The position numbers were made by a program, and so were the translations under genes. A stretch of DNA of 64,000 nucleotides. Source: Amoebophrya sp. A120 (taxonomy: Eukaryota > Protista > Dinoflagellata). Under the pieces are notes generated by a model, which had not been told where the DNA came from, made no database searches, and saw only the letters and a program-made list of their open reading frames with translations. Numbering within the stretch: position 1 is the stretch's first letter; every line of letters starts with the position of its first letter. The stretch lies in assembly GCA_905178155.1 (NCBI GenBank), contig CAJINV010000019.1:1224913-1288912 (forward strand). Reading direction: 5' to 3'. Positions 5,777 to 50,700 of this stretch are shown piece after piece.

Positions 5777-6430
5777 GGAGTTACCGGAACAGAATTTGTC
5801 ATGCAAAATGGTGTTACGGAGCATAATTCTTACTTTTGATGGCACTAGTGCTAGCGACGTTTCAAAGAAGATGGCAGACAAAAGACACAGATTCCACCAC
5901 AACTTCGGATCGTTTAAGTCAAGAACTCGACCACTAGAAAATACTTTTACAACTGTACAAAGCAGGGTCCAACATCTTCTTTTCTCGAATCTGCACAGCA
6001 AATTAACAGGCTTGTTTCCCACAAACAGTCAATCTGGGAGCTTCGCGTTGTCACGATGCTTTGGTCGTCGTGATAAAGAAGGCACACATGATTCACGCGA
6101 ACCCTTCGTGTGGTCGTGAAGAGTTCATTTCCCAGGATACGGGGAGAATATTTGCATCTGTTAAGTACGCCTTTCAGACCTCCCGCATCTTGGTAGCGTG
6201 ATGGTTTAGTTGAGGACTAGTTCAGATACGATCTAGCGCTCAGAAAGACAGGATATTCGCCTCGTCTGCTTCTACCAGATGTATCCATAATATCCACCGT
6301 CCGCTGCGGTAATCACCACTACACCTGTAAGCATCAGGCGTTCTTGAGAGGAGCGGCGAAATTTTTTGCGAGGTAAAGCGAGGCGGTGCACCAGATTCTA
6401 AGTTCAGTTCGTGTAAGGTAGAAGTACAAG

Positions 6431-9400: not shown

Positions 9401-9940
9401 ACCCAATCTGTGTTGGACGAGTCGCAGTTCGATTTAAACGCAGTGGCGGAGGAGGAAGAACATGAACACCACATCGAACAATCCGAGGCTGTTCCCCAGG
9501 AACAAGAGGTCGAAGGACAGCACTACCACTATCGTAAGCAAAAATCCCCCCTCCCCATATCGAAAGTGCAGCCAAAGAAAATTTGCAATGCTGATGTGTG
9601 ACCACGAATCGTCTCTGTCTTGCGAGAAGGCAACCCCACAGGCTACGCCGGATCATGCAGGCGGTTGGTGATGCTGCTCGGCTTACAGCATGGACATTCG
9701 TCACGCTCGGCGCGTACGTCAAAACTTCTCAGCTCAGGGCTTCCACACGCCTGCAGTCCGCTCCTGCGAGACAAATCCGATCTGTGTACGGAAGTCCAGC
9801 GTCAGAAACTTTGTTTCGATATGGGGACGGAGATTTTTGCTTTTGATAACCACATAGATAGCGACCAACTTCCTGCTGCGGCGATCCCAGGCGCCGCGGC
9901 CGCAGCCATGCCGCACCAGTTTCGGCCGGATCCGCGATAG
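6431..9940 (+). CDS. Coiled-coil hypothetical protein, ~13 exons (8 TIR-element introns, 4 GT-AG introns)
   Basis: Manual splice: MS|ESSYQHYGDRAF|AHRSS...IQNRIQ|YFK|REEDKIWKGLEEVRRQAA|KIEDG...|...QLEEEEMRCLQRLQNS|RIVTQSVLSELEG...QHYH|IDSDQ...PDPR*. The acceptor near 8795-8806 is uncertain. Confidence 0.75.
6437..6647. mobile_element. Eroded TIR intron directly after codons Met-Ser
   Basis: TATGAAC...TCTTGCAA / TTGCAAGA...GTCCATA; flanks TGTCG/CCGCA; frame restored. Confidence 0.6.
6689..6852. mobile_element. Eroded TIR intron
   Basis: TATGGATAGAAAAAGCTGC / GCTGCTCTTTCTAGATCTCCATA; flanks CGTTT/CCCCA; frame restored. Confidence 0.7.
6973..7148. mobile_element. Eroded TIR intron
   Basis: TATGGAAATGTGAAGCGAAGTTT / AAACTTCACGTTTTTTTCTCTCCATA; flanks ACAAT/TTCGT; followed by an 8-nt exon and GTAAGT. 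Confidence 0.7.
7394..7705. mobile_element. TIR introner, family B
   Basis: TATCAAAAGGAAAAATCCCCCCTCCCCATA...TATGGGGTGGGGGGATTTTTCACTTTGATA; perfect TSD GGCAA. Confidence 0.95.
7973..8171. mobile_element. Eroded TIR intron
   Basis: TATGGAAAATG / CATTTCCCTCCCATA; flanks GGGCT/CCCCA; frame restored (MRA|NLEHG). Confidence 0.55.
8266..8517. mobile_element. TIR introner, family A (252 bp)
   Basis: TATCAAATGCAAAAATGTCTGGGTCTGG...CAGACCCAGACATATTTGCAATCCATA; perfect TSD CAAGA; reverse-complement homologue of 63426-63677. Confidence 0.95.
8920..9121. mobile_element. Eroded TIR intron
   Basis: TACGAAAGTTGAACAA...TCGAT / ATCGAGGGCGTTGTTGCACTTGCATA; flanks ATGCA/TCCCA; frame restored (MMH|AQIPQLEEEE). 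Confidence 0.65.
9530..9848. mobile_element. TIR introner, family B
   Basis: TATCGTAAGCAAAAATCCCCCCTCCCCATATCGAAA...TTTCGATATGGGGACGGAGATTTTTGCTTTTGATA; perfect TSD ACCAC; internally similar to 82-404. Confidence 0.95.
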
Positions 9941-11159
9941 TGCTGGTCGGCGGAATTTTCTAGCTCCGACGTCGTCGGGAGGAAAAAATTGGTTGCCGGG
10001 TGTGTGATTCTGATTTTCCTGCGCAGCATAATGCTTCTCCTCGAATTATGGAGAGCCAGTTTGCACGATGATGATCACGAAAAGCTGCAAAATAATTATA
10101 CGCACTTCCTGCTTCTATCAGAGAGAGTGACGTGTGTCACGATTTTTGCGATTGAGAGGACTCTTGAATTCGAATTGACAAAAAAACTTTTTGTAGAATT
10201 CTCGGCTTCTTGAGCGGCCTTTATTTGGAGTTTGCGGTGTTCGCGCATCGTTTCATTAGGGATAGACGAAGCATAGAGACGAGTTCTGCGAGGAAGAGTC
10301 CTTGGCGTGCGAGAAAGAGAAAGAATCAGTACACGACGAGGGGCGATGAAAAGGTTTCACTGTTGTATCCGCAGCTTTATTATCGCGTCGTGCGTTTTTT
10401 CGAGAATGGAAGGCTACCGTGTTAGTAGACGACTAGTTGTACATTTTAGATTCATCTATTCGTTGCGAGTGGTTGCAGCTGGTTTAAAGAGGCTGGAGAA
10501 CGTGTGGATTCGCTCGTTCGCGTAGTTCTTTCTGCCTAGGTTTTCAAGTACCAGCGTCGTCGTGCGTACGTAAAGATGGAACTACGAACAATGCAGCGCC
10601 CTCTCTCATGCGTTCCTATATATTGATGCATTCGCATCCAATTCCTGACAAACGAACTGAATTCAACGTGTAGCAAAGCCTAAATAGAAAAGGACCTTGT
10701 ACTTCTTTTGTCTTTATCGTTGGGCGATAGTTCGTATTAACATCCTAAACCTTCTCTCGTTGTCACGACGTGGCTTGTTCTTCAGCCTACGAATTCATGT
10801 TAACAAGTATCCGATCTGTATATGCGAAAGTAGAAAACAAGTAAAAGTGTTTTTTCATTGGGCGAGAACTAAGTACTACCACGATAAAAATCGTTCCTGA
10901 AGCTCGCAAAAATAAAGACAAAAACCATGAAATCTGATTCGTCTTCCGCCTCCAGGAGGCGCTGAGCAGCGGCTGGACTGTCGCATCAGCAGCTGGTAGA
11001 ATTGGAAAGAATACAGCAACCGGTGGAAGACTTCTTCTACGGATGCTAAACCTGCCGCCGCACAAATAGTAAAACGGCAAGAAAGACGAGGACCGCACAG
11101 CGGAGGTAGAAGTCGACGACAGGTACTGGAACGAGTTGACCACAGATTTCAGCAAAAAA

Positions 11160-12153
11160 ATGACGGAGGGCGGCTACCTGATTTACACGGAGGACAGCCT
11201 GGGCACGCTGTTTCTGAAGTGGAGCAAGGAGCCAGTCGAAAACGCATTAGCCTTTTTCGAGGCCGGCAAACCAATACCGGCGTTCAAATTCACCACGAAC
11301 CAGTATGGAATGGGAGATTTTTACTTGCGTGTAAGTTGGTTCTGAGGCGGATAGAAGGATTGTCAACGTTGTTTTGCATCAAAACTTTTTTGCATTTTCG
11401 TTTTGTTTCGAAGGAAATTCACGAACAAGAGTAATAATTATGTGCATCAGACATTTACATTTTTTTTGTCCTGCAAAACTGGAACCGATATAATGAATCA
11501 CACAAAATCTTCCGACATCGATAACCAAGGCCGGTTTCAGCTGATGAAGGGCTGTCAGGACAAGCAGAAATTTTTCGAGGGCTGGGGCGCGTTTCTAAAG
11601 GAAGCGCTTTGCCGGTAGAAGGTCGCGTTTGTAATGTATCTTCAAATTTATAATATGGTGACTGACAACTAATCGCAGTTGTCATGCGTGGTCGACGTGA
11701 TGAACTGATGTCACAGCAAAACGCCAAAAAACACAATAATTATCAGGTTCAACGCGACCAGCCTTGCGGTTTACGCAAAACAAAACGCGCGCGAAGACGT
11801 GCAGGTGGTCTTTCTCGAGCGCGGAACCTCCGCGGTGCAGCGAATAGAGCCCAACGGAAAGTGGAGCGGTGACATCACGAGTTTGTTCGCTTTCGCCGTG
11901 GTGCCGGTGGATAACGAGACCTACAACTGCGGCACTCTGGACCAGAATCTATTCGTGTCAAAAGGTATAAAGATGTTCTAGTTCGAATTTTGTATTGCTC
12001 CTGGACTTGAATTATGACAAATAAAGGTAAAACGGGTTTATTCGAAATTTGTAATGCTTCCTAGAATACTAGTACACATATGTCAACGCCGGTAATGCAA
12101 AATCACCTATCTAACCAGCGAAAATCGAGGGCTGCGGGTACTCGCTGAACTGA
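11160..12153 (+). CDS. Immune-mapped protein (IMP1/IMP2)-like protein, ~160 aa; exons 11160-11303, 11529-11614, 11747-11964, 12119-12153 (possible alternative last exon 12493-12707)
   Basis: Spliced product GGYLIYTEDSLGTLFLKWSKEPVENALAFFEAGKPIPAFKFTTNQGRFQLMKG...FFEGWGAFLKEA resembles the IMP N-terminal domain of apicomplexans, recognised from memory and not searched. Exons sum to 483 nt. Two GT-AG introns and one TIR intron. Confidence 0.75.
11304..11523. mobile_element. Eroded TIR intron in the IMP-like gene
   Basis: TATGGAATGGGAGATTTT / AAAATCTTCCGACATCGATA; TSD ACCAG/ACCAA; gives KFTTNQ|GRFQL. Confidence 0.8.
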
Positions 12154-14586
12154 GAGCAAAGCCGCGTTTTGTCTGTTTGTGATGCATAGCGTCACCATCA
12201 CAGCGCAGGCTTCCGGTGCATGCTATGCATGACAAATACGAGCTGTTCCTGTAGTTGCTCTTCGTCGTTGCCTCGCGCTTGCTCCAGCCCAGTTCGTGGT
12301 CTCGCATTTTGTTCCTTCGGCTAGTTAGGAGGTAAAGCATTACAAATTTCGCGAACACCACTCGTCATTCGGATTCTTCTTGTTTGATGCGTGATTTTTT
12401 TCAGCCTGAGAGCCCGTTTTGACACTTCTTTGTCATGCAGAAATCCGAGACGGAATCGAGAAACCAAAATATAAAACGACTTTATCAATCAGGTCAGAAG
12501 GCGGGCGCCGCCTTTCCCATAGAAGGGGGTGGCGGAGCCAGCGGCCGAGCCACGGTTGCGGTGCCAAGCCTTATGCTGGGAGAAAAGTTGAAGCAAGGCA
12601 AAGGCAAAGTTCGCAAAAATGGACTTGTCATGATGGTTACGAACAGTCATCGTGCCTTTAGATGTAGGCGGAAAACTACATACTCATCTCTCATGTTTTG
12701 TATGTAATCACATTAGCATGGCATTGGCAAGTCGCAATTTACGAAGCCTTTGACTTGGTTGCTCAACTTTCTCACGGGATACAACTGATGAACGAATCCC
12801 CTACAAATCGCGGCCACCCAGCAAGGCACACAGTAGCATAGGGAAAGAAGAGGAGGCTTTTGGCTTTTTTGTTGAAAGTTGTGCAATATGCAGTTCCACT
12901 AGACAGTTCACTTGTACAGTACCCCTACCCGCAAAATTCTATAAAGTGTACCTTTGCCTCAACACTCCTAAAACTGTAAAACAAATTCAAAATCTCCACC
13001 ACTATCTCCTGCCAACTTCATCCCAACTTCCTAGAGAATAAATGGAAAAAACACGTCACTTGAAAGATCTATCCCGCTGCTCTCCTTCCGATGATAAATA
13101 ACGACCCGCGCGGGGGACTACCTCGGGCACTAGGCGAAGATGCGCTTGTATGATATATAATGCCGCCCCTGATACTTACTACATACCTTGTCTTGATGTG
13201 TTTTTTTGGAACGAGAAACAAACGCAGCATGACGACGCAGGTGGGGATGGGCTAATATGCGAGAAGAGCCCGGAGCTACTTTGCTGTTGTTTCCTGCATA
13301 GTATATCGGTCGGCCTCCCCTCTACTGCTACTTTCTCCTATTAAAATTTCGGTACAATATTTTCCGCAACTTCTTCTATCTGCAGAAAATGTCATGTTGC
13401 AGCCCACCACAACGAACTCGATGTTTCCGATACCTTTCTGTTGTTACAACAGGAGTACATAGTCGAACCGTTGAACAATCGAAGATGCGCCCGCGCACAA
13501 CTAGGTAAATGCCGCTACAAGGATGAAAAACCAAAAAACTGCCGACGCGAAAAAGACTTTGATGCCACAGGTTTGCTGCCGCTTCCTTGTGTAAAAACCC
13601 TAGCAAGATGAAAAAGTCTTCTTCGACAAGTCCTGTTGTTTGGCTGTTGTTTCAGTGCTCGACTGCTGAGATTGTTCCAAACACCACCACCGCCGGATCG
13701 AATTATTTCGCACGAACAAAACTCGGTTTGGAAGTGTCGCTTGATTGACACAGTAAGCTGTTTCATATGCTCCAGTCACTTCGCGGCGGGAGTTGTGATA
13801 GATTACAGTACAGAATCGGTCATCGCAAGCCTCTTGCGAGGCTCGCGCATTCGTCCGCTTGCACGCACGAAAGAAAGCAGATACTACCAGTATACAGCGT
13901 CATTAACATTGCATTTTTCGGTCGGTGTCGATTTCGATATCGGTAAGGAAAGCGCTTTTCTTTCTTGTGTCTGGCCCCAATCGGTTTTCGTTTCGCATGC
14001 CTCGGTCTCTCTAGTAAAAATCGTGCAAGAATAAAAATGAAGACAGTGCCAGCATTACCATTAGGCAGTATCGGTATAATCTGTTTCGCCTGCCGTATTC
14101 GACATTCCGCTCGTCATCGTCCAACACCTTCGACTTCGTGCAATATTCTCGTGCAAGAACTCATCAATTCTTTCCAACGATTGCACTAGCGACCTTCACT
14201 TCGCTTCCGACTTTTATCTTCAACCGATGACTGATTTCTTTCGTCCACGTGTAATCGACAGGATGAAATGTCAAAGCCCCAACTTCTATTTCATCAAACT
14301 TGGATAAAAGATGTTTCCCTTTTATTTTTTACCTGCAAATTATGATGACGAAGCGAACTTTGATTATCAAGCCAAATTCGGAGGAGCCTACTTACTTACT
14401 TCCTGGAGGAGAGTAGCACAAAAATCATCATGAGCTTTCATGCGATCACGACCTTGTAGTTGTAAGTGACACTAGTACAACTTCTTCCAGGGAAGAAGTA
14501 GCGTTTTATTGTTCCTCTCACAGCTTCTACCTTCTCTTCTGACGCCATTTTTCACTACAATACTCAGTGTACCTTATATTGCAGTT

Positions 14587-16418
14587 ATGCGCGGTGCAGA
14601 CGCCGTTTGGTCCTCTCCCTCGTCGCACAGCAGCAGCGGGGGAAGTGAGAAAATTGCGCGAGGAGGACAAAAAACTGCTGGAGCCACACTCTTTCCACTT
14701 CTCAGGAGGTCCTCGAACTTTCATTTTCACTACACAGCGGCGTGGTGTGTCTGTGTGGTCCTCGCCGGACACGAACTGTTCGCGAACCTCGCAGGGAACA
14801 ACAATTTTTTGCACAACTACGACCAGGAGGAATGTCCCCATTCTTCCGGGGCGGCGGGGTTCATACAACTTCTCGGCGTCCGGGGGATGCAGGTGGAAAA
14901 ATCTTTCCCCCACTTGAAGAGAAGGAACTATCAAATGCAAAAATGTCTGGGTCTGGAAGAGTGCAAGGTTTGTGATGCAGTTTTTCCATGACCCATGAGG
15001 CCTGGAATGCAGCACTTAGCATGAGAAACGCTGTGAGGTGTCTATCATGCCTATCCTGCATGAGAAACTCCCTCCAAACTGGTCAAGAGTGGACATCTTT
15101 TGGCACTCATGCAACACAGATTTCTGCATGATTCAGATTTAGCATGACAAGTTGCAATCTTCCAGACCCAGACACTTTTACAATCCATAGGAACATGGCT
15201 GGCACCACGTTTGAGGAGTACTACACCAGTGTGACAGAATATCGCAAGATGAAAAAACTGCTTCACTGTGAACTTGTGATGCATGGAACGATGGAGTAAA
15301 AACAGAAGTATTCTGTCTTGCTGTTCATCTACACATGCAAGACATTTTTGGATTTTCAACCGAGCCGTGTTGAAAAATTAAAATACCCTTTAGGAAGTGG
15401 AACGCACGGCATCAAGTTTTCTTTGTGGTCCGGTGTGAAGATGATACAAAAGACGTTCAAACAATAAATCGTTTACTATCGTGAAGCGCTACTTTTTTCG
15501 TACGATACAAGCCAGCCCTCGGGCCCGACGCAGACCCTGCCGAAGCAGGTCAAAAAGCCCCGGCGAAGGATGCCGCCCGAGCCTCTGTTTCCAGCGGAGC
15601 CCCCTCCCAAGCCGGCAACCGCCGAAATGGAAACGCAAACGGACCCACAGGACATGGGCCTGATCTACGACCCAGAAACCGACCAGTATTTGACCCCGGA
15701 GCAGCTGCGTGGCCGTGAAGAAGCCCTACATATGCAAGGAGAGGCAGCGATGACGCCCGCGTTAGCAAACTTCAATTTCACCGCAGGTCGTTGATGTTCT
15801 TGTGGCTATAGGGGAGAGATGTTCTTGTGAGCTCAGGGTGGACCTCCACCACGGCGACACCGTTGCATGGAAAAAAGCTGACTTGCATTTATTGTGCAGA
15901 TGTACCTCTACCTCCGCATTTACCATAACTTTTGAACAGGGGAGGGTCCTAAACAATTGGAGACTGTTGAAAGCAATAGGTTCGACGACGACGTCTTCAT
16001 CGATACGACCACTGTATTGATATTCGATGGGGAGCAGGAGGCTACTCCTGGCATAAAGAAATCATATCCAGGAAATATAGAAAATTTCACGGCTAACGCC
16101 CGAGCATCATGGTTGCATTGCATACAACGCCTGGCGGGTTTGGACCCCAACAGTTTTGTCGACCCGAATCTATTGCTTGACCCGAGTCTAGTACAGCCAC
16201 AATTTGACCAGTTTGGGAATCCGATTTTTCCCCCGCCGCCAGGACCAGAACCGATTGTCAGCCCTATACCGGGACAAAACGAATATGGGCATTCCGGGCT
16301 CGAGCGGCACGACGACGAGGACGCTCTTAATGGAGGTGGTCCACAACCACGACCGGTGCTATCACACGTAAAAACGCCCCCTCGAAGAGGACCCTTCCCC
16401 AGAGTAGTTGCCATGTAA
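14587..16418 (+). CDS. Hypothetical Pro-rich protein, ~379 aa; exons 14587-14928, 15195-15239, 15513-15786, 15940-16418
   Basis: Two TIR introns plus GT-AG intron 15787-15939 join ORFs 14509, 15570 and 15957 in frame (1140 nt). Start codon uncertain. Confidence 0.7.
14929..15189. mobile_element. TIR introner, family A
   Basis: Family A TIRs; perfect TSD GGAAC; reverse-orientation homologue of 62834-63098 and 51610-51866. Confidence 0.95.
15240..15507. mobile_element. Eroded TIR intron
   Basis: TATCGCAAGATGAAAAAACTGCTTCAC / GTGAAGCGCTACTTTTTTCGTACGATA; flanks CAGAA/CAAGC; frame restored. Confidence 0.75.
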
Positions 16419-19400
16419 TTAATCCCGCATCTGCAGGAGCGGAGACTAGTAGGTGCGTCGTCTGATGCACCTGCTTTTTCGCAACTACGGGACGAGAGAC
16501 GTTTAAGTGTTTCTAGGAACAATTGCGTTTCTTGTTGGGAAGATGAAAATGTCCTGAGCGTCAACTTTTCACAGAGATGCTTTCAGCAAGCAGGATCATG
16601 ATCATAAGAGACTTTTATTCTCATTGCTGCGGGGGCAAAAACTGCAAGTAACTTGGATCCTTAATCCCCGCCATTATGCTGTAGCACACACTGAATAGAC
16701 TTGTCATGATGCATGTTGACGTCCCCCAAAAAGAAACTTCGGCGTTTTTCTCTCGCGGAAGACGTTGTATAATTTCGTAACTGGGGAGCAAGAAGGGGAG
16801 GTTTTTACAAAGGATACCAGGACCCGAATGACCCGAATGATCCTCTCCGACTCCGACCGCAACCACCGCCGCGGCAGCCTCCCGGCGAAGCCACGGTGAC
16901 TTTATTCAAATCACACTTCGTGTATCCCACCGAAAATTGGTGCATTTAGCGTACGTAGTACTTTAGTTGTCAACAAATTTGTTCTTGCATGTAAACATGC
17001 GAAAATGTATTTCCGCAGAGACTACAGAAATCTTGACGTTGTGTCGCCCGTAATCATTCAAAGCAGATGATCATACATGATACAACTTGGTACAACAATG
17101 CTAGAAGCTGCAATTTTCTAGTCGACATCGCGCATGATGGAAGGATCGAGCCACTGGCGGTGCGGGGCGGCTCCCCCTTTGGCGGGTTTCGCGGCAAGGG
17201 CGGAGGGAAGGGCAGCGGGGGGGCGCGACGGCAGACGCGAGCAGCGCCGATCGGCGGACGAGGTCCGGGGGCAGGGAGGGGCGGAGCGCCACGTGGTTTG
17301 TCGTGAGGTGGGTCGTAAGGCCTGTTGCAAAATGAAATTAGTTTTCAAAAGGGAAATAAAGATGCTGTGAAGCTCAGGATCACCGATCTGTGATCTATGG
17401 ATGTCGCGATAAGGCCGATTCGACGGCCTTCTCACAGGGACTGAGTAACTCCTCTGGCTTTGATAATTCTATCGTTTGCTCGCATCAAGAACTGCAACAC
17501 TTGTTTAGAATTTGAATTTCATCTATTTTCCGCAAGAATTTCTATAGCCTCACTATTTTTATTTGACAGTACATTTCATAATCTTAATCTTACCTATTCC
17601 GACCATAATACATGAAGAGCATTATTATACGCAACAATGAAAAAAACACCGACTCGGAGGAATACTAGAGGATGTCGCAACATTCGCCGACTGCGACACA
17701 AGAATACGCGTCGCATGATCAGCTTGTGCAAACGTGAAGTAGATCATTGCCGTGCAGAAGTCCTTTTCAACCTTTATCCATTTCAATATCTTTCTTCCGA
17801 TTATTCTCTCGTACCAGTATTTATTTTGTGTACACTACAGCTTTCGACGGTTTAATATCTTATCTACCAGTTTGTTTATTCTCAGTTTGCTTCTTAACCA
17901 CTGTACCGTAAAATATCGAAATTAGCAGAATATTGTCCTCTGAAGATGAGGTTTGTTCGCGAGGAAGAAGGTGAGCAAAGAACGTGAGCAACCTGATCTT
18001 CCATTTTTGGTCTCTTCTTTCTCGAAAAGCCCCCGCGGTTGGAAGTTGCCGCCGGTGCTGCTGCTACTGCTGCGACCGCTTTTCATCAAGGGAGATAATC
18101 CCACTTGATACTGTGCACCCGCTGTTTTACGACCATCGTAATATTAGAAGCTTTTGAAGTTGTGAAATTTTGCCTCGGTCAACCGCTTGACGACGCAAAA
18201 AATCCAGATCGGTTCGTGTTGTGTATTGAAAATAAGTGATTCTTTTATCGTCGGTTTCTTTCATTCTGGTGCTCAAAACTTACTATTGTGAGAAGACAAA
18301 ATCGCAGTTTCCGGTTCGTGCAGTGCACAGAATAAATCCGTACCTCGTAGACAATTTTCGGTCGGTCGTGCGTGTGGTCCGCTTAAAACTTGCGTGCCGA
18401 GGAAAGAAGACAAAAAGAAGTCGGTATAAAAGTAGGACCCTGAAGAGCTGGCGTGTCTCGTACTTTTCTCCACTGTACTATAATACAGGTGCTTACTACC
18501 GCCTCGTTGTGCAGCTTTATTTTAATACCGATAAGCAGACTTGTGTCTGGGATTTGATTATTTTAATACCGATCGGTCAGTGAGCGTAAGTAAGTGGTGC
18601 TTGTTGCCCCTTTCGTTCTGTACGTGTGAATTCTGTTGTTCTAGAAGAAGTGTATTACAAATTTTCGTTCTCCACACTCAAAATCGTGCATACTAGTACA
18701 ACATCGTGCATCAAGATGAACTTGTCGTACTCGTTCGGAAGGTACAAACATCATCGTGCTTCTAGAATTGCCGTGCAAGTTCGGTCGTACTAACAAGGAA
18801 ACCTCAGGAGCAGTTGTTGTTTCCGAGTTCGACGTGTAGGGGGCAGTTTATTTTAGGCTCCGATATCGAATTCACCTACCGTGTCTACACGTGAGAATCT
18901 TTCTTTGCTGAAACTACAGATCCCCTTCAGACGAGTTACTTATGCGTGGTGAAAACTCGTTCCCCAACGAGGTCGAAGCATGTAGTAGTTTCGCTTGGGT
19001 TTCTTGTTCTTTTTCGTACACTACTTGTTGTAAATTTTTCATCATTCTCTCCATGTTCCGTGAAAATCTAAAGCATTCCCCGTAATTTGTTGTTTATCAA
19101 AATCATTTCTTTTTTACCTTGTGTGTTTCCGCTGTCTACTGCTTTCTGCTTGTCGAGTTTTCTCCAAAATTTGCAGCAAGGAGCGGAGTTCTTGAACGCG
19201 GAGAGAGGAGTTCCTGAATCACACAACTCCGTCGGAAAAAACTCGTCGAACTACAACTCGCGGGGTGTCCGGGCAACTGTGTGGAAGAAGCAGTCGCGAA
19301 TTCGTTTTCGTTTCAGCGAAGGTGGTGAGAGCAGCTCTTGTGTTCTTCAGTTGACGCGACGCGGACCACTCCGGTTGTATTCGATTCTACGAGAGTGCAC

Positions 19401-40125: not shown

Positions 40126-42305
40126 CATGTCGAATTCGATTCGGAGAGCAATTTTTTGTCAGCGGCAGAAAATTTCTCGCCAAAAAGTGCTATGCCCGGC
40201 GCCATAGGGTCGAACTTGAGGGAATTTTTTGCAAAAGTGAGCACACTTCTTGCGTGACTCAAGCAGCATGCTATGAGCTTCCCATGACAGGAGAGTTTCC
40301 GCTTGATTTATTTTTGCATTATATGGAAACAAGTTGATCTGGATATGCATATGCTAGCTTGTGTCTGTACGATAATCGCGAAGAGCAGTTTGAAGTTACT
40401 GAAAAACTGCCTGACGTCGACGGCGGGGGGATGGCGACCCTAGTGCTGGACCCTACGGAAGACCAGCAGCTGGCCACGATTTTCGAGTCGGGACGCAGCA
40501 TCACAACTCATTGCAGCACTGACTCTTACGCAGAACACCGTGCCCGCGAAGTGTAGTCGCGAGTTGCCCACGATGATGTAGAGTGAACGCTCCTGCTGCC
40601 GGGCAAAGCGGCAGACACTGGGTACCACTACCTCTGACCACTGAGCTCTCCCGAAACTGTGCAAGCTTGTGCGTGTGTGTTTGTACACTGACGCGCACGC
40701 CGCGAGACGAGTGCGCCCATTCACGATTTGTGATATTTCTTCTTCATCTTCGCATTTTAACTTTTCGCTTTTTTTATTTATTTTATGAACTTTTCAATTC
40801 TGGAGGAAAAAAAATTCGTCTACAGGTAGTTGGCAGGCGTTTACTAAACTTACTCAAAGCTTCACCTATTTTTTTTTGCGAAAATTTCAGTAAATCTAAA
40901 TTCGTTGCTCTCAGGGCGCCATACTTTTCGATTTTTGAGGCTATGCCGAAACCTCTCGAGCCATTTTTATACTGCAACTGTTTTTTTTTTCCGTCTGTGC
41001 GAACCTTTGCCACAGTTTTCGATGAGTCGCTTTTTTTTTTAATCTCAGGTCGCATTTCCAAGAATGTTTTCTTTTTCCTTCACGGTATTCCGATTATTTT
41101 TTCAAAAGATTGATCTTTATGTTTATCTGCTCAAAAGAAAAGCCCGCACAGAAGCGTAGTCAAGGCCATCATAAGTTTAACTAATTGACAAGTAGAATTT
41201 ATCACGTTCATTGTCTAGTATGGGATATTTTTTTGCCACGAGCACGACCAAGAAAGGATCGTGGCACTACGAAGCAGCTTTTTACTGATTTTATTCCATG
41301 CCTATTTCTCATCTGTTTCCATTTTTTGACAGTTTCCTCTTTTGATTTTTTATTTTTTCGTGATGCGCATCGGCACGCAAGAACATTGTGAACTACTATC
41401 CAAGTGCAAATTATATCTGTTGGACAAATGCTAATAGTAAAAGTAATATCAAGGCCGGCAGGCTGGTAGTTGCGCACGCATTCGAAACAAGCAGGGGTAG
41501 GAGTACAGTTGCAACCAGAAACGAAAGCGTGCAGCCGATTCGATCTTGAAACAGCTTTTTTCAGGAGCGCTAGTAGCAAGAGTGGCCTGGCTTTTCTATT
41601 TTGCCGTTCCGTGGGCAACACTCTCTGCAGTTGCCTTTTCTTCGTGGTATTGATTTGTTTATTTCGTTATTGTTCATAGGTTGGCCGCCAGGTGGAGGTG
41701 CAGTCAGATACATACAAAGCGGCCTCTCTCGTCGGTCTTGCTACTCTATGTCGCTCGTTTTTTCGTGTTGTTTTTTTCGCAGCGTCCGCGTATGCCCGAC
41801 ACGCTCTCAATCGTCCCACTGTGTCTTTACTCGTTCGCATTTTTTGTCGTGGTTTTTTCTACTTGCCCGCAGAAATCGTTTAGTGGAAATTTCACCAGGT
41901 GGAAGGCATGTTCATGTCGCAGCAACGAAGGAAAGTCCTTTTTTTTGTGAAACCACGTGCAGGCTGCTGATAGCGCCCTTTTGTTTCGTTCTTAGACAAG
42001 AGGGAGCCTTTTTTAACTTCGTTCCCATATTATCCCACACAGAAACTACAGGTAGATTACTTTGTTTAGAATTATCAGCGTCTACTTGCGCCACTCTGTT
42101 TCCTCCACTGTAGCAGCAGCAGTACCCCTGCGCAGCAGTAGTTTTCCATACCACTACTCGAGTAAGAAAAAAAAACACGAAACTGCAACACTAGAAGTAC
42201 CAGCTTTGCTTTCACCAAAAAATTGTCCTCCTCGTATTGAAACTACAAAGCACAACACCGGTTGGAGCCTAGATAGATCGGTTGCGTTCAACTTCAAGCG
42301 CAAAG

Positions 42306-45300
42306 ATGGACGAGGCCAGCAAGCTTTCCCCGGGGAAGACGGAGTCCACCGCGGTGCCCTCTCCCTCGACGAAGGGCGGCTCCCCCGAAAAGGCTTCGGA
42401 AGAAGAAGTGCGGGCAAGGCTGTTCAAGGTACAAAGAGTTTTTTTTTTATCCCAGTAGCATGCTTGCCAAATAACAAAGAAATAAGGTTGTTGATCAATT
42501 GTCGCTTCTAAGTAAACTGATGACTCGTCAATCGTGGATTCTCTGCATCGTTGGATATTAATTAAGAATTTTAGACTTGATCATGAAAAAAACACCAGGG
42601 CCTCGGACGCGACCTCCTTTTGTCGATCAAAGAAGGCTATCGAATGCAAATATTTTCGTTTTGGTTTTGGGTCTGCCAGAAACCCGTAAAAGTAGTAATT
42701 TGAATAAAAGTTAACCCACTTGCACGACCCCCGCACGACACGCTGCAGGTTTTTTTTTTGTAGCCGATATTATACGATGCAGCTCCACTCCTGCGCGGTC
42801 ACTAGGCATGAATAGATTTTATCGGAGCCGGGGTTGTCATCTCAAAGCCCAGCTGCTGAACACTACATATTGATCTCGTCTCGACCCAGAAGATCGACGT
42901 GTATTTGCAATCCATAAGGGCGACATGCACAAGGCGCAAGGGCTATCCTGAGTAAAAACGTACCCACACCATAGTCAAGATGGGGAATCGGCTAGACAAA
43001 TCCACAAGTTTTGGCTGTTTTGCATGACAAATTTGGATTCGTAGTGTAGTGCTGTTTGAGCTAGCTCAGCAGCATCACAGATCTAGCATACCATGCTGAT
43101 TGGAGCATGACAAATTGCAAAACACGACTAGAAAATGCTTCTCATGGGGCTCCGCATGAGAAACGTTTTCAGGATGCAGATTTGCATGACAACTCTGGTG
43201 TGGGTACGTTTTTACTCAGGATAAGGGCTGATCATGGGCGGTGTGGAACTGGATGCCCGGGAGCCGGTGACCGGGCGTATCAAATGCAAAAATGTCTGGG
43301 TCTGGGAGGATGGAACTTGTGATGCTGTCTGTAGATTCCAAAAAAGTCTGTATTGCATGACCAGCAAAAGGAGTCCACATTGTCCTACGCGGAGAGGGCA
43401 TCTCTCATGCGGAATACGCACCAGAAAGCCCTCTCAAAATCAGTGATGCTAGGCCATGCATTACAGGCATGATGCGTCATGCAAAATATGCATCACAAAC
43501 CTCGCACTCTTCCAGACCCCGACATATTTGCATTTGATAGAGCGCACCGCTTTGCATCTCGCCGTGCAGATATCAGGGGAAAAACAAGTTTTGTTTCAGT
43601 GCAACAACGTGACTGATCGACATCAAAGCGCCGTCTACATCAAAACCCATAGAAGAAGCAGATCCGCGGCCATTTTTTCTGTCAGAATCTTCACGTTTAA
43701 CAAACACAAACTTCTAGGGTAGAATATGTGCTGTCGTGCTTTCTATGATCTGCGAGAAAGCACAGAATTAAAGTTGTAAGGTCTTGCACTGAGTAGAACA
43801 TGCTTGTTTTTCTGTCGATACCAAAAGACCGCCATGGGGGTCGTGAAGCTGCTCGTGCAACACAAGATTGACGTGAACGCGGTGGACCGCATCGGTGAGG
43901 TCACAGCCCTGCACGTCGCTGCGCACCGCTATGCCAAAGAAAAAAGCTAGCCTAGCAGTATGATCGTTTGATTTGGGAAGCAAAACAAAGCGATATAGGC
44001 CGTGTGAAATTTTTAAACTCTGTCATGGGCCGCGAGCTGTCTAGGGCATTGCAGTGTTCTTGGAACTGGGCAGGAGAAAATGACACAAGCTTTTTTTTGC
44101 AGCAAGTGCAAGTGATGTTTTCGCATGACAAATTCGACATGTGCAGTCGGCTATGCATGACAAATTCGAGATGCTAGCTTCAATTTTCTGTTGGATAATT
44201 AAGGGCAGATGGTGATGCTGAAGCACTTGCTGGCCGCGAAGGCGAATTTGAACCTGGTCGGCGTGGAGGGCGACACTCCGTTGTCGCGGGCGGTATGACA
44301 GTGCACAACTCCCCCGCGTTCCCATTTGTCATGCAGAATACCAAATCCACGCTTTCCCTCCTGTCACTATGATGCATGACAAGTTCTGCTAGCCCAAATA
44401 GCACTACAATCCAGCTCAAATTTGTCATGCAAAACCAGCATTCTTGCTGATGCTTGTATAACCGTTCATGCTATAGAAATGAGGGGGAGGGGTAGTTGTG
44501 CACTGTCATAGGCGGCTACGCAGGGCCACTTAAAGGTGCTCGACTCGCTTATCTCTAATGGGGCCATCTGCGACCTGAAGCAGCGGCAAAGCATCAACGA
44601 GTGGCAGCAGGCCGAGATCGAGATGAAGCAGCTGGCCCTCCAGCAAAGCACGACGGCCTCGGGGTCGCAGCGCGGGCGGAGCCCCATATGATGGTGAACA
44701 ACTCGCTCCCACTTGTTCTTCCCTTGACTTGAATAAACGCATAATGTCTACTTGCAGCAACAGAAGCAACGCCATCGCCAAAAAACAAGTATAGCTTCTG
44801 CATGACATTCACAATATCGAACGAATTCTGACAGTGATTCATTAATCACAGTTCAATATTCGGGAGGTTCATCCTGGTCCGAAATTTGTTTATGTCGGCA
44901 GTGTTTATTTCTGCAGGCGAGAAACCGGATTTGGTACTTCTGTTGCATTTACATTTGAGCGGAAATTGAAATTGTAGTAGGGCAAGATGTTTACTGTCAT
45001 ACTCCACGCGCAGTATGCAGGGCCATGGCGACCGCGCTTTCCAACCCGCAGTTCGGGACCGCCGGGAGCCGGTGTCTGCGCTAGTGAATATGGATTGCAA
45101 AAATATCTGGGTCTGGAAACTTGTGATGCTAAAATGTGGATGATGGAAACACACCCGAATGCAACCCAGCATGACAACTTTCCAAGACGCTTTCCCATAG
45201 GCAATCCGCATGAGGAACTGCGTTTTTGCATGTACAAAAGAGGCTCCGACTTTTGTTGGTTATGCAATACAGATTTTCTAGGTATGGAAAGCTAGCATTA

Positions 45301-46445
45301 CAAGTTCCACCCTTCCAGACCCAGACATTTTTGCAATCCATAGTGAAGGCCGTGAAGCGAAACTGCGGCATTCCGGTGGTTAAAACGCTGCTAGAGATAT
45401 CCAACGAGAAAAAACTGTGTTCGTGCCACTTGCTTGATACAATGGACGAAAAGCATGACAAATTCACTCTGCGTGACAGACTTGAAGACGTGTCATGCCT
45501 TGCCAGCACGTGCATTTGAAAAGGAAACAAACACTCAGCTCGGAAAAATCAATAGGTGCGCAAGTACCTAATCACCTGAGAACGGCCCTGGCCTCGCATG
45601 AGAACAAATCTAACTGTCTTGCATGGGGTCGTGCAACTACTTACACGACGAGCTTACACTAAACAGAGTTTTTTCCCCTGGACAGGACATCGGGTGCGAC
45701 TCCAATCGGACGGATGAAAAGATGAACCGACCACTCCACGTTGCGGCCCACTACGGAAACGCGAACACGTGCCGGCTCTTGCTCCATGCGAAGGCTGCGG
45801 TGAACGTCGGTAACCACCTGGGCCGCACGCCCCTGCACTTCGCGGCGCGTTCTGGCCACGCCCGAATCTTCCGCATGTTGCTCGACTACAAGGCCGAAAT
45901 TAACGCCGAGGACCGCTTTGGGCAGACGCCACTCACCCTGTGCTGCGACACGATGATGTATCCACAGTAATTTTCAATTTGCATCACTACACTGTGACAA
46001 ATTTTTGCACTTTTGCATAAAGAGAAAGTTCACCTCCTGCCAGCACTACTCAAGTACTTTCATCCTACAACTCAGCACTTAACATTTAGAAGCACTGCAG
46101 GGTTTTGATGAAGATGTTATGTTCATCTTTCGGAAGCAGAAGTTCTAGTACATGCACCGTGCACTGACTTGTCCTTGTGTGGTAAATTTGTACTTGCATA
46201 AGACGCAGAAGCTGGTGAAGGACAACGGTGGTACCCCCGGATACTCCGACGAACACAACGATGTTTCGCCACCGGTTTCGCCCGCGCGGTCCCTGTCCCC
46301 CGCACGGAGCCCGAGCCCGGACACCGCGCCGCGATTCAACCCGGCCGGCGCCAGTGCCGGCAGCCAACCCGGCTCCCCCGCCACAAAACGGTCCCAGGCC
46401 AACAAGTTGCAGGGCTCCCCGGCCTTCTTCCAAGAGCGACACTAG
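42306..46445 (+). CDS. Ankyrin-repeat protein, ~421 aa, 12 exons (1 GT-AG intron, 10 TIR-element introns)
   Basis: Exons 42306-42428, 42599-42637, 42922-42943, 43229-43277, 43545-43570, 43826-43929, 44203-44293, 44516-44686, 45007-45088, 45348-45397, 45690-45958, 46206-46445 (1266 nt). Ankyrin motifs GRTALHLAV, TALHVAAHRG, GDTPLSRAATQGH, RPLHVAAHYG, GRTPLHFAARSGH; several are rebuilt across junctions. Confidence 0.9.
42638..42916. mobile_element. TIR introner, A-related
   Basis: TATCGAATGCAAATA / TATTTGCAATCCATA; TSD AAGGC/AGGGC. Confidence 0.85.
42944..43223. mobile_element. TIR introner, family C
   Basis: TATCCTGAGTAAAAACGTACCCACACCA / TGGTGTGGGTACGTTTTTACTCAGGATA (perfect 28-bp TIR); perfect TSD AGGGC. 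Confidence 0.96.
43278..43539. mobile_element. TIR introner, family A
   Basis: Family A TIRs; TSD GGGCG/GAGCG; splits ankyrin motif TGR|TALHLA. Confidence 0.93.
43571..43820. mobile_element. Eroded TIR intron
   Basis: TATCAGGGGAAAAACAAG / CTTGTTTTTCTGTCGATA; flanks GCAGA/CCAAA; gives LAVQ|KTAMGVVKLL. Confidence 0.85.
43930..44197. mobile_element. Eroded TIR intron
   Basis: TATGCCAAAGAAAAAAGCTAGC / GCTAGCTTCAATTTTCTGTTGGATA; flanks ACCGC/ATTAA; gives AAHR|GQMVMLKHLL. Confidence 0.8.
44294..44510. mobile_element. TIR introner, family F
   Basis: TATGACAGTGCACAACT / AGTTGTGCACTGTCATA (perfect 17-bp TIR); perfect TSD GGCGG. Confidence 0.93.
44687..45001. mobile_element. TIR introner, family F-like
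   Basis: TATGATGGTGAACA / TGTTTACTGTCATA; TSD CCCCA/CTCCA; frame restored. Confidence 0.8.
45089..45342. mobile_element. TIR introner, family A
   Basis: Family A TIRs; perfect TSD GTGAA. Confidence 0.95.
45398..45684. mobile_element. Eroded TIR intron
   Basis: TATCCAACGAGAAAAAACTGTGTT / AACAGAGTTTTTTCCCCTGGACA; flanks AGAGA/GGACA; gives TLLE|IGCDSN. Confidence 0.8.
45959..46200. mobile_element. Strongly eroded TIR intron
   Basis: TATCCACAGTA / TACTTGCATA; flanks TGATG/AGACG; gives CDTMM|QKLVKDNGG. Confidence 0.6.
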
Positions 46446-47790
46446 TGGCGAAGGGTTGTCGACATATGATAAAAAGGGAAAAGTTTTTGTTTGGGTAGAA
46501 CGATCAGCATGTATACGCAAAACATGAAACAAATCCTAAGCTGCCAAGTGTATCCAACATTCGCATATAGCATATCCTGTTTTAACAACTATTCACTCAC
46601 TTACAATTTCTTGTAACATCGGGACCACATGTGCATAAAAACATGCGGCACAGACCCAGTCGAAAGTTAGCAAAAGCATATCCTGTTTTCAACTCACTCT
46701 TCTTACAAATTCTAATCAGCAACCATGGGCATATCCTGCAATCAAATCTACAGTAAAAACTTCTAAAACACTCAGCAAAAAGAAGCTATTTCTATTTTAG
46801 AGTTTTATACATAATAGCATCGCTGGATACTGCTTTTGCAGTGGCAGCAGCCTATTTTTCTACCCTGTGGAGGTTCCGCTCGCTGAAATTTGAGTCGGGA
46901 CAAAAAATCTACCCTCTAAAAACAATCAAGCAAAAATCCGGTTCTGGCGCTCTGTTCACAGTAATAAACCACTGTGATAGAAGAAGATGACAACAAAACC
47001 GCGTTTCTTTTGTAGCCCACTCCAGCCGCGATACCCTCGCGACGGAGGGGGCGATTCATTTTTGGGAAAACATGAAAACATAAACAGCATATAACATCGC
47101 AATTTTATCACGACCCTGCTTTGGGAACATGAAAACATACTGGCAACAAAATTTTTCCCGGCGCTACCTTACAGACGGTGGCAGAGTTGTGGTGCCGCTT
47201 TTTCTTTTCGTTTAGTTCGTGTTTCGGCTTGAGGGATACCTAGGATCGATTAAAGTCGAGACATCACTTACCAGAAACAGAATCAACTTGAACTTGCATT
47301 TTTTTCGTAAAAGCCTTTTCCGCGATCTTTTCCATGGTGATCAACATCATGATTTTTCGTGGCTTTTCGGATCCTCATGTGCATCACGTGATCGTACAAC
47401 TCGGTAGAATTTTCCTCAGAGGTGTCGTCGCAGATCGGTACTGGCAAAGATACATCTCTCGCTCACAAGCGATCTTAGAGAAATTTTTGCGACGTTGAAT
47501 GGTTTTGACAAGTTGTTTGCAGAAGTGCAAGTAGCATCATTTTGGAGTTCTTGGCAGTAAGCAGTTCTCTCGTAGCATCGTTTAGAGTGGCTCTGCAGAT
47601 CTTTGTTTTTCGTACACAACATCTCTATTCGGATGGCGGAATTTTACAGACGGAAATCTTGCTAGTGCTGTGGTATAGCCAGGTTTTTGAGTGAGTACCG
47701 TTTTCTATGATGTCGTCGTTGGTTATGGTAGCGTCCGTTAGATACGATTAGCTCTAGAACAACAGCAGGAACAGCAACAAATTGCCCCAG

Positions 47791-50700
47791 ATGAGGCACC
47801 AGCACGACCACAAGAAAAGGTTCACTTACGTCAGACTTCTTCACCTCCCAGAGACCAAGCTCGCGATGCCCTGCCGCCTCATGCACCGGAACGTCCCGAC
47901 TTTCCGGAAAGAAGTGAGAAAGGTACTGCTAGTACCGCAGAAAAAATTTCATTTCTCGACCCGCGTCCTCGTTTTCCTTTCCGCCCTGAGCCTCTTGCTT
48001 TTTGTTTTTTCAGCCCGCGGACAAGAGGTTAACAAAGCAAGTGCAAGAGATGAACCTGCAAAAGCTGGAACTGCTGGGGTCCGCGAACTACTTGTGTCAG
48101 ACGCTCATCAACGACCACCTGAGCACGCTTCTAGCGGCCGCGCACTCTCCACCACCTTCGCAGAAAACGAGGTACATTTTAAGTATCAAGCGGCTGATAG
48201 TGTGGGGGAAGTTTATCCTGAGTAAAAACGTACCCACACCAGAGTCAGGATGGGGATTTTGCAACACAAACCTAGGAGTTTTGTGAGTCACGCATGACAA
48301 GTTGCACTCTGCAGTGTAGTGCAGGTTAGCAAGTGCAGCCGCGTCACAGATTCATCTGCTCATCCTGTTCACAGCATCACAAATTCCAAAACACGATTGA
48401 AAATGGCTCTCATGCGGATGCGCATTACAAGTCTTCCTGTCTTTGCAAATCTGCATTACAACTCTGGCGTGGCTACGTTTTTCCTCAGGATAAAGTTTAT
48501 TGGTGCCTCAGCTGCGGGATGTACCGGATCACTGGTGCGAAGAAGCACAGAAGTGATAGTACGGAGAGGGAGAACAAAGTTTACGGAAAAACAAACACAA
48601 AAACCGCGGTTTCCGTCGTGCTGCATGCAAAGGAGAGGAAAATTTTTACCATGTTCCACGCGGAACGGGCCTCTGAAGGCGTTGGAGACCAACATCACGA
48701 GGACAACGTCTTCGGGAAAGCCGAAGACCGCGCGTCCGTACGCCAGTGCCTGTGGTACCCCTTTCCCGGCGGGGGTGCGGCGGGGGAACGAGGTGAACAG
48801 GAGAAGGATGAGTTTGTTTCTTCGTCATCAGCATCACAAACAGTGCTTGGCGCGGAAAAGAAAGCGCTGAGAGAGATCCAACAGAACCTTGTGAGAGCTT
48901 GGGATAAAGAAAGCAAGGACAAAGCTGGAGCTGCTTCCGGTACTAGTAGTGCATCAGACGTCGTCGACTTCGAAGCAGATGAGCCTAGAAATTCCCTCGT
49001 CCTTCCCTGGGTGCGCGGGAAGGAAATTCGAATAGAAACAACACGACCGCCGGATAGTGGGGAGGAAGCGCCGTCATATTTCTCCTTCGCCAACTCCGCT
49101 GCATTGACGCAACCGCAAGGAAGTAGAAATCAGAGGAACAAAGAGCTTCTGACCACGAAGAAAATCACGATTTTGAAGCGAACCAAGAGAACGAATTCAT
49201 CTGCAGCAGGAGACAACAGCTCACGTACTACAGGGTCCTCTACTACACCAGCAGCTCCAGCTGCAGGAGATCAACATGATAATAAGCTTACAGAGTCCTC
49301 TACTTCTACTCCGCCTTCCTTCTACACTGCGACGGAGTACCAATCCGTTTTCGACGAGAACGAGAACTACTCGCCGCCCTTCCTGCCAAAACTCGATCCC
49401 CGGAACATTTTTGACAGTGACTGCGAGCGGTACTCGGAGCTTTTGCACGGGGAAATCCTGGCGCATTTCGGCTTGAGTGGATTGGGCAGCGACAGGTCAC
49501 TCGCACTGCTGGACTTGGTGGCCGCTTTTGATAGTGCAGCTGGTGATGTCCTCGACGGCCGTGGTGGTGGTGGGTCAACACCATCTTCTGCCAGTGAAAA
49601 GGTAAATATCTTCCAGCCAGAAGTACTGGCAGCGGCTGGGCTGGCGCTGCCGGGCGAACTGGCCGTCGTGCTGCAGGATCCGGATATCAAATGTAAAAAT
49701 GTCTGGGTCTGGAAGATTGCCAGGTTTGTCATGCATATTCTGAATGACCCTGACCCATGATGTCTGTGATGCATGCCCTAGCGTCACAGATTTTTAGAGG
49801 ACTTTGCGATGCCTCTACCGCATGAGAGAAGCCCTCCCCGTGTAGCACAAACTGGAGTCCTTTTGCTAGGCATGCAATAGAGATTTTTTTGGAATCGAAA
49901 GACAGCGTCACAGGTTACCACCTTCCAGACCCAGACATTTTCACATTTGATACCAAAAATGCCGGCACAATTTCTCCCATTAAATTTCGCCGCGGGTCAG
50001 AACTTCAGCATGCGCTTCGATTACGAATCAGAAGAGATTCTGCTCGGGACGATGAACCGAAAAGGGGATAATTATTTACCGGATGTCGCCAATCATCCAG
50101 TTCCAGCGGGAGGATTTGATGAAAACGTAGTTCTTGAGAAGAAAGTATCCAAGGGCGAATTGCTGGCGGTCAACAAGTACAGCGTTCCGCGGTCTTCAAG
50201 AACGACGCCGCCTTCGGATTCTCACGACGGAACAGAAGAAGTCAAGGGCTCGCCACAACAACTTTTCCGGCGCGTGAAGCTGAACGTCCAGTATTCCCCC
50301 ATCAAGACTCTGACACTACTACTCACGGAAGAGGGCGAGGTTTTCACGAACCTTGCGACGAAATTGGACGACATCGACCCGGTGTCCGGGAAAAACGCCG
50401 GCCAGACGGACAATGTTTGCGCGGAGACGAGTAGTAGAACTACGGATGAATATGATCAACAGTATGATGGCAGCATCAATCAAGGAGCTTTGTCGGACGA
50501 CGAGGACGACGAGGAAAGCAGTCTTTTCTTCCACCATGCAATTGCTGGAGCCGCAGGGTTATATCCTATGGGGCAAGGCGGGACCGGTGCAGCTGCTCTA
50601 TCTCTTGAAAACCAGCAGAGCCTATGGAAGTTTTGGGGCACGCAAACCGTGGACGACCTGGAGTGCGTCGGGTTTGAAGCCCATCTCTCCCGGAAGAGAA

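What the first reader, a model, noticed from the sequence alone, without database searches (positions are those of the whole stretch)
42306..46445. Ankyrin gene with ten consecutive element introns and 22-50-nt micro-exons
Seen: about 2.7 kb of elements from several families and of different ages (perfect to fully eroded TSDs) within 3.6 kb, leaving exons of 22, 49, 26 and 50 nt, yet the 1266-nt frame is intact. Related A-type TIRs occur three times, so mispairing between elements could skip exons. Inference: pairing must be local or co-transcriptional. This is a compact test locus and an age series.
Basis: partly seen in the sequence, partly recalled or inferred. Interest (0 to 1): 0.7.

Follow-up and report, generated by a model that had tools for sequence, protein, structure and literature searches.

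The report
Transposon introns cut at fixed offsets
This is an already annotated, expressed ankyrin gene of the marine parasite Amoebophrya whose ten transposon-derived introns belong to a published class; the new detail is that every checked junction fits one rule (cut one base before the element and four bases after it), which likely constrains a splicing mechanism that is still unknown.

Summary
Observation confirmed. The window is Amoebophrya sp. A120; the 421-aa ankyrin protein is already annotated and identical to my model. One GT-AG intron is followed by ten TAT...ATA terminal-inverted-repeat elements of the introner class published in 2021. One 2178-nt transcript contig matches the fully spliced model exactly (8 of 10 element joints listed, 2 by length). 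A close relative lacks the four youngest-looking elements, keeps the six eroded ones and has two of its own, so the age series and 5-bp duplication are shown directly. Ten in a row is not exceptional: a published A120 gene has 16 introners and a neighbouring gene has a 9-nt exon. No skipping between same-family elements was seen, although equilibrium folding favours the E3-E8 duplex; contigs cannot exclude rare isoforms. What I did not find in print: all 20 element joints listed fit intron = N+TAT...ATA+NNNN (4 fit nothing else), whereas the 2021 paper calls the site variable. Weakly paired elements splice in the same register, and five GT-AG introns share +2T, +3A and -5A, pointing to an altered spliceosome (inferred, about 55%). 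Known system, useful new rule.

The parts
42049..47100 (+). Extent of the spliced transcript contig (2178 nt), including UTRs
   Evidence: table 8; length predicted exactly
42306..46445 (+). Ankyrin-repeat gene, 12 coding exons: 42306-42428, 42599-42636, 42921-42942, 43228-43276, 43544-43569, 43825-43928, 44202-44292, 44515-44685, 45006-45087, 45347-45396, 45689-45957, 46205-46445; 421 aa
   Evidence: identical to P0010 = GSA120T00016283001
42429..42598 (+). Intron 1, canonical GT-AG, also present in the relative
42637..42920 (+).
42943..43227 (+).
43277..43543 (+). E3 intron (element 43278-43539), young, absent in relative; same family as E8, opposite orientation
43570..43824 (+). E4 intron (element 43571-43820), eroded, shared
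43929..44201 (+). E5 intron (element 43930-44197), TSD 1 of 5, shared; its joint fixes the register uniquely
44293..44514 (+). E6 intron (element 44294-44510), perfect TSD, absent in relative
44566..44570 (+). Empty site: the relative carries a 171-nt element here with a 5-bp duplication
44637..44641 (+). Empty site: the relative carries a 279-nt E2-family element here with a 5-bp duplication
44686..45005 (+). E7 intron (element 44687-45001), shared
45088..45346 (+). E8 intron (element 45089-45342), perfect TSD, absent in relative
45397..45688 (+). E9 intron (element 45398-45684, 3' end ACA instead of ATA), eroded, shared
45958..46204 (+). E10 intron (element 45959-46200), weakest TIR (9 of 20), shared

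Best explanation
Ten small inverted-repeat elements sit in this expressed ankyrin gene, polymorphic ones between 5-bp duplications, and each listed one is removed from the mRNA together with exactly five flanking bases at a junction that fits a cut one base before the opening TAT and four bases after the closing ATA; the cutter is likely an altered, U1-lacking spliceosome that reads the element ends. Shown: gene model, splicing, 5-bp duplication, gains after the split from a relative, register, independence from element orientation. Inferred: a DNA transposase acting in trans made the insertions; because element plus five bases is always removed, any new insertion is silent in the protein; the ends are read intron by intron (short motif, helped by a co-transcriptional hairpin while the element is young), so the E3-E8 duplex rarely matters; the register puts T,A at +2,+3 and A at -5, as in the organism's GT-AG introns, so the same machine probably handles both. 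The confidence given is for the spliceosome step; the gene/introner identity is about 0.97 and the fixed register about 0.85.
For: Splicing: 2178-nt contig, 9 joints of this gene listed, exact length match. Register: 20 of 20 element joints listed (8, 12) remove element+5 and fit offset 1/4; the other five registers fit 5, 5, 8, 10 and 13 of 20; 4 joints fit only 1/4; probability 3e-8 if registers were uniform. All 9 predominant A120 non-canonical motifs in Table S4 of PMC7789003 have T second. The relative's protein is best conserved with 4 or 5 left-copy bases kept (2 differences against 6-10). Orientation: E3 and E8 are opposite, both fit. Motif rather than hairpin alone: E5, E10 terminal pair probability 0.0; terminal positions of six shared introns differ at 5 of 198 against 97 of 1398 inside (Fisher p=0.013). 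Shared geometry: 5 of 5 RNA-supported GT-AG introns start GTA and have A at -5. A120 has nearly all spliceosomal proteins and U2, U4, U5, U6 but no detected U1 (PMC7789003 section 10).
Against: No lariat, branch point or splicing intermediate was observed. First and last intron bases are free, which a standard spliceosome does not tolerate (recalled). A branch A at -5 or -7 would be closer to the acceptor than the fixed -8 reported for Entamoeba invadens (10.1101/2022.06.08.495308). The -5 A rests on five canonical introns with A-rich ends, so it is weak. Only 4 of 20 joints exclude every other register; 13 of 20 also allow offset 0/5. Element ends of eroded introns were located knowing the joint (16 of 20 have both exact triplets at one cut, 3 have a one-letter variant, 1 compound joint was resolved by hand). 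All RNA contigs come from one study (X3-X6); no transposase was looked for.
Confidence: 0.55

Rival explanations
1. A non-spliceosomal endonuclease plus ligase measures from the base of the terminal stem (1 nt on one side, 4 nt on the other) and releases the intron as a linear or circular RNA, as proposed for euglenid nonconventional introns.
For: Fixed offsets from a helix end, free terminal bases and orientation independence suit a structure-measuring nuclease. Euglenid introns pair at fixed offsets and are released as full-length circles, not lariats (review PMC11282704 section 6).
Against: E5 and E10 have no predicted terminal stem yet keep the register; +2T, +3A and -5A coincide with the organism's GT-AG introns. 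No such enzyme was sought here.
Confidence: 0.3
2. Hairpin pairing alone defines intron ends, so same-family elements mispair and give regular exon skipping or circles: E3 left with E8 right would drop 474 nt in frame, and E3 right with E8 left would circularise exons 5-9.
For: E3+E8 cofold is -235.6 against -216.1 kcal/mol apart; the unconstrained MFE has 152 E3-E8 pairs and no cognate E3 or E8 terminal pairs, whereas a 500-nt span limit restores them. Several non-cognate end pairs are as strong as or stronger than cognate ones. The skip is in frame.
Against: The one contig across the gene is fully spliced; no joint from 43276 to 45347 or back from 45087 to 43544 among 15 of 20 rows listed. 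A published A120 gene carries one family five times, so the situation is common and tolerated. As a rare by-product it is not excluded.
Confidence: 0.1
3. The cut position floats within the duplication, as the 2021 paper states, and the apparent register is a small-sample effect.
For: PMC7789003 Fig. [quoted passage not shown] S23 legend gives 1-5 nt; automated calls in PMC12130899 supplement differ by family, TSD 2-5.
Against: 20 of 20 fit one offset and 4 fit only it; perfect duplications make aligners slide, which explains published variability (5 of 20 joints fit all six registers).
Confidence: 0.05

Closest known systems
Amoebophrya A120 introner elements / non-canonical introns (Farhat et al. 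2021, PMC7789003; sections 10, 11, 12, 16 and supplement passages read)
   Same: Same organism and annotated gene; inverted repeats starting TAT, seven looser bases, then an A run; 3-5-nt direct repeats; about 240 nt; non GT-AG ends; multi-copy families.
   Different: The paper calls the splice position variable or unknown and sees no dinucleotide signature; here 20 of 20 joints fit one offset and the duplication is 5 bp at empty sites. Its figures could not be seen and may show part of this.
A120 introner families in Gozashti et al. 2025 (PMC12130899; passages, 21 of 58 A120 family rows, and the example-gene table read)
   Same: TIR DNA elements creating many introns per gene; 16 introners listed in one A120 gene.
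   Different: Splice-site recruitment and TSD length were called family by family and disagree (TSD 2-5); no common register in the rows seen.
Euglenid nonconventional introns and diplonemid noncanonical introns (PMC11282704 section 6; PMC12621601 passages)
   Same: Non GT-AG ends brought together by terminal pairing at an offset from the splice sites; TSD-like repeats; likely MITE origin; mechanism open.
   Different: Euglenid pairing is at +4..+6 with -8..-6 and ends prefer pyrimidine|purine; here +2 pairs with -5 and end bases are free. Circular release is reported for euglenids, untested here.
Fritillaria borealis MITE-derived non-canonical introns (via review PMC11282704 section 6)
   Same: TIR/TSD elements removed by an adapted spliceosome.
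   Different: Fritillaria keeps preferred ends (AG-AC, AG-AT); these do not.
IS3EU/GingerRoot DNA transposons (PMC10045372 passages)
   Same: TA..TA termini.
   Different: Usually 6-bp TSD; here 5 bp. No transposase examined, so only a lead.

Membership tests
Amoebophrya A120 introner element | Lies in the A120 genome | tested here: met
   Encoded protein identical to the A120 record P0010
Amoebophrya A120 introner element | Removed from RNA with non GT-AG ends | tested here: met
   8 of 10 joints listed, 2 by length; none GT-AG in the common register
Amoebophrya A120 introner element | Terminal inverted repeat starting TAT, 7 looser bases, A run | tested here: met
   All ten start TAT; 9-20 of 20 terminal bases complementary; column counts
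Amoebophrya A120 introner element | 3-5-nt direct repeat at the borders | tested here: met
   5 bp; single copy at empty sites; eroded to 1-4 of 5 in seven elements
Amoebophrya A120 introner element | Repeated family in the genome | tested here: inconclusive
   E2, E3, E8 have relatives among 29 elements compared in the window; the other seven showed no 60-nt match; no whole genome held
Non-autonomous TIR DNA transposon (MITE) | Presence/absence polymorphism with fixed-length duplication | tested here: met
   6 polymorphic sites between window and L002/L003, all differing by element+5
Non-autonomous TIR DNA transposon (MITE) | Cognate transposase in the genome | not testable with these tools
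IS3EU/GingerRoot | TA..TA termini | tested here: met
IS3EU/GingerRoot | 6-bp TSD (usual) | tested here: not met
   5 bp in 21 of 21 young elements (set chosen with a score that rewards 5-bp matches), 6 bp in 0 of 21; empty sites agree
U2-type spliceosomal intron | GT(GC)-AG ends | tested here: not met
   First and last bases take several values in 22 introns
U2-type spliceosomal intron | Lariat through a branch adenosine | not testable with these tools
   No raw reads on this gene
Euglenid-type nonconventional intron | Pairing at +4..+6 / -8..-6 and release as full-length circle | tested here: not met
   Pairing starts at +2 / -5; circle not testable

The most novel reading that the evidence does not exclude
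Amoebophrya A120 has one universal splicing rule for its tens of thousands of 'signature-less' introns: a U1-less spliceosome has been retuned to read transposon ends (N-TAT as a donor with a free first base; ATA-NNNN as an acceptor measured four bases from a conserved, possibly branching, adenosine). That geometry removes exactly one 5-bp duplication, making any insertion in either orientation silent and licensing continuing intron gain between close strains.
Probability: 0.4. Interest if true: 0.8.

Novelty: already known. Interest (0 to 1): 0.5.

Why it matters
How Amoebophrya removes more than 60% of its introns without GT-AG ends or U1 has been open since 2021. A single offset rule turns an apparently signature-free class into a defined substrate: it allows correct annotation, names the bases to mutate (+2T, +3A, -7A, -5A, the stem) and predicts where a branch point or a circle junction should map. 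This gene is a handy test locus because it holds young and old elements, an opposed same-family pair, and a natural allele lacking four elements. The gene itself and its intron count are ordinary for this genome.

Tried and rejected
No whole genome is held, so no genome-wide tally or transposase search. No listed run is on record as RNA among indexed holders; X3-X6 are treated as RNA because their contigs join exons of four genes. Raw RNA reads X9-X11 covered only repeat parts of E2, E3 and E8 with foreign flanks and no exon: no information on skipping or circles. Joints 43304-45117, 43373-45305 and 43501-45313 join element interiors at related positions and are read as other family copies, not as skipping. 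Pseudogene or retrocopy: rejected (25 synonymous against 2 non-synonymous codon differences to the relative; AT5.2 ortholog 72% identical and collinear). Variable TSD length: rejected. A rule-based model of the upstream gene 6652-10126 stayed open to about 8637 and then needed a one-base shift; left unresolved, and its predicted introns were left out of the counts. One search had a coordinate bug for the relative's intron 1; the CDS comparison was redone (its intron-divergence and empty-site parts did not depend on the bug). Earlier-findings look-ups returned nothing. Literature searches for a stated register; none found; the preprint of Roy et al. 2023 does not mention Amoebophrya; figures and subscription papers were not visible.

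Full report
What is there. Reading 41000-48000 and repeat searches show a run of 217-315-nt segments that start TAT and end ATA with complementary ends. A scan that used only the inverted repeats listed 29 pairs in the window, 13 of them with a perfect 5-nt flanking direct repeat. Removing one GT-AG intron (42429-42598) and ten such elements with five extra bases each gives 12 exons of 123/38/22/49/26/104/91/171/82/50/269/241 nt, a 1266-nt open frame and a 421-aa protein; element introns total 2704 nt in 3568 nt. Two of four exons tested hit ankyrin families in Pfam.

Identity. A search with exon 11 returned a 421-aa protein named for Amoebophrya sp. A120, 100% identical, gene GSA120T00016283001; it equals my model at every residue. 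Orthologs include AT5.2 at 72% identity, collinear across the junctions. Farhat et al. 2021 (PMC7789003; sections 10, 11, 12, 16 and supplement passages read; figures not visible) describe exactly this class: over 60% non-canonical introns, A120 inverted repeats beginning TAT and ending in an A run, 3-5-nt direct repeats, mean 240 nt, no U1 snRNA detected. Gozashti et al. 2025 (PMC12130899) mention tens of introns in single A120 genes and list 16 introners in one gene, one family five times. So the gene, the intron class and the density are known.

Expression. Run X3 holds one 2178-nt contig from 42049 to 47100 with no mismatches in its listed pieces; 9 of its joints are among the 15 of 20 rows listed. 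The joints of E1 and E2 are not listed, but the model length is 2178 nt exactly. Three raw RNA runs had no reads on exons.

Age series. A metagenome scan gave L002/L003, identical over their 3322-nt overlap and so one observation. This allele encodes a 421-aa protein with 2 amino-acid and 25 synonymous codon differences. It lacks E2, E3, E6 and E8, each site showing a single 5-bp copy, keeps E1, E4, E5, E7, E9 and E10, and has two private elements with perfect 5-bp duplications at sites empty in the window, one of the E2 family. The four missing elements are the four with the best inverted repeats (1 in 210 by chance). TSD match follows TIR match (Spearman 0.88 for the ten; 0.72 for 22 introns). 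A distant ortholog, L001, shows one break near residue 117 only. Insertion with 5-bp duplication and continuing gain are therefore shown, not just inferred.

The register. Where the two 5-nt copies differ, the mRNA tells which copy each base came from. I added 12 element joints from three upstream genes (15 of 23 rows listed, runs X3-X6, one study). All 20 element joints remove element+5 and fit a cut one base before TAT and four bases after ATA: 16 have both exact triplets at one cut, 3 have a one-letter variant, 1 is a compound joint around a 9-nt exon that I resolved by hand. The six possible registers fit 5, 5, 8, 10, 20 and 13 of 20; four joints (after 5408, 6687, 15238, 43928) fit only this one; the chance under uniform registers is 3e-8. 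Independent hints: all 9 predominant A120 non-canonical motifs in the paper's Table S4 have T as second base, and the relative's protein is best conserved when 4 or 5 left bases are kept. [quoted passage not shown] Searches found no statement of a fixed offset; unseen figures (Fig. 3, S19-S25) may show part of it.

What is read. E3 and E8 are one family in opposite orientation, 69% identical over 226 nt, and both fit the rule, so internal strand-specific signals are unlikely. In 22 introns +2 T, +3 A, -7 A and -5 A are invariant and +5 and -8 are always C or G, while +1 and -4..-1 are free (partly by construction, as ends were defined on these triplets). E5 and E10 have no predicted terminal pairing in local context yet keep the register, and terminal positions of the six shared introns differ between alleles less than interiors (5 of 198 against 97 of 1398, p=0.013). 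Five of five RNA-supported GT-AG introns start GTA and have A at -5, as does the relative's intron 1; their ends are A-rich, so this is a lead only. I infer that an altered U1-less spliceosome reads the element ends (0.55); a stem-measuring nuclease-ligase, as suggested for euglenid introns, is the main rival (0.3). No step of the chemistry was observed.

Mispairing. The skip would be in frame (474 nt). Yet the only contig across the gene is fully spliced and no skip or back-splice row is listed. This fits local, probably co-transcriptional, definition of each intron, but does not prove that pairing is what must be local, and contigs cannot exclude rare isoforms.

Verdict. Real, expressed, already annotated, and a member of a published class; neither ten elements nor 22-nt exons are exceptional here (a 9-nt exon lies at 7153-7161). 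The value lies in the fixed 1/4 register and the natural empty-site allele, which make an open mechanism directly testable. Interest 0.5.

Noticed in passing
window 7153-7161: 9-nt micro-exon between an element intron (6972-7152) and a GT-AG intron (7162-7338), seen as six letters between two sides of a joint in all four runs.
   Followed up: yes
window 8638-9125: Predicted second 9-10-nt exon near 8843-8851; the frame is restored only if the preceding GT-starting intron ends one base before its AG, i.e. in element register. No RNA joint listed.
   Followed up: partly
window 5155-5350, 7162-7338, 11615-11746, 11965-12492, 42429-42598: All five RNA-supported GT-AG introns begin GTA, lack a pyrimidine tract and end A-N-C-A-G (A at -5).
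   Followed up: partly
window 43021-45464: A 13-nt internal motif (GCATGACAAATT-like) occurs 8 times on one strand and also reversed, across different element families; possibly a shared transposase or splicing-factor site.
   Followed up: no
window 42944-43050 (X10 and X11): Hundreds of raw RNA reads match part of E2 at 95-99% with foreign flanks: other family copies retained in abundant RNA or present as DNA.
   Followed up: no
window 5409-18533: Many eroded element introns (111-462 nt); the first base after ATA is C in several, perhaps drift towards a preferred acceptor context.
   Followed up: partly
window 20000-42000: Few recognisable elements (1 of 38 candidates) compared with both flanks.
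   Followed up: no
window 46570-46748: Three 20-nt direct repeats in the 3' UTR, also present in L002.
   Followed up: no
L001 5001-6514: Distant AT-rich ortholog with what looks like one GT-AG intron near residue 117 and none of the element positions.
   Followed up: partly
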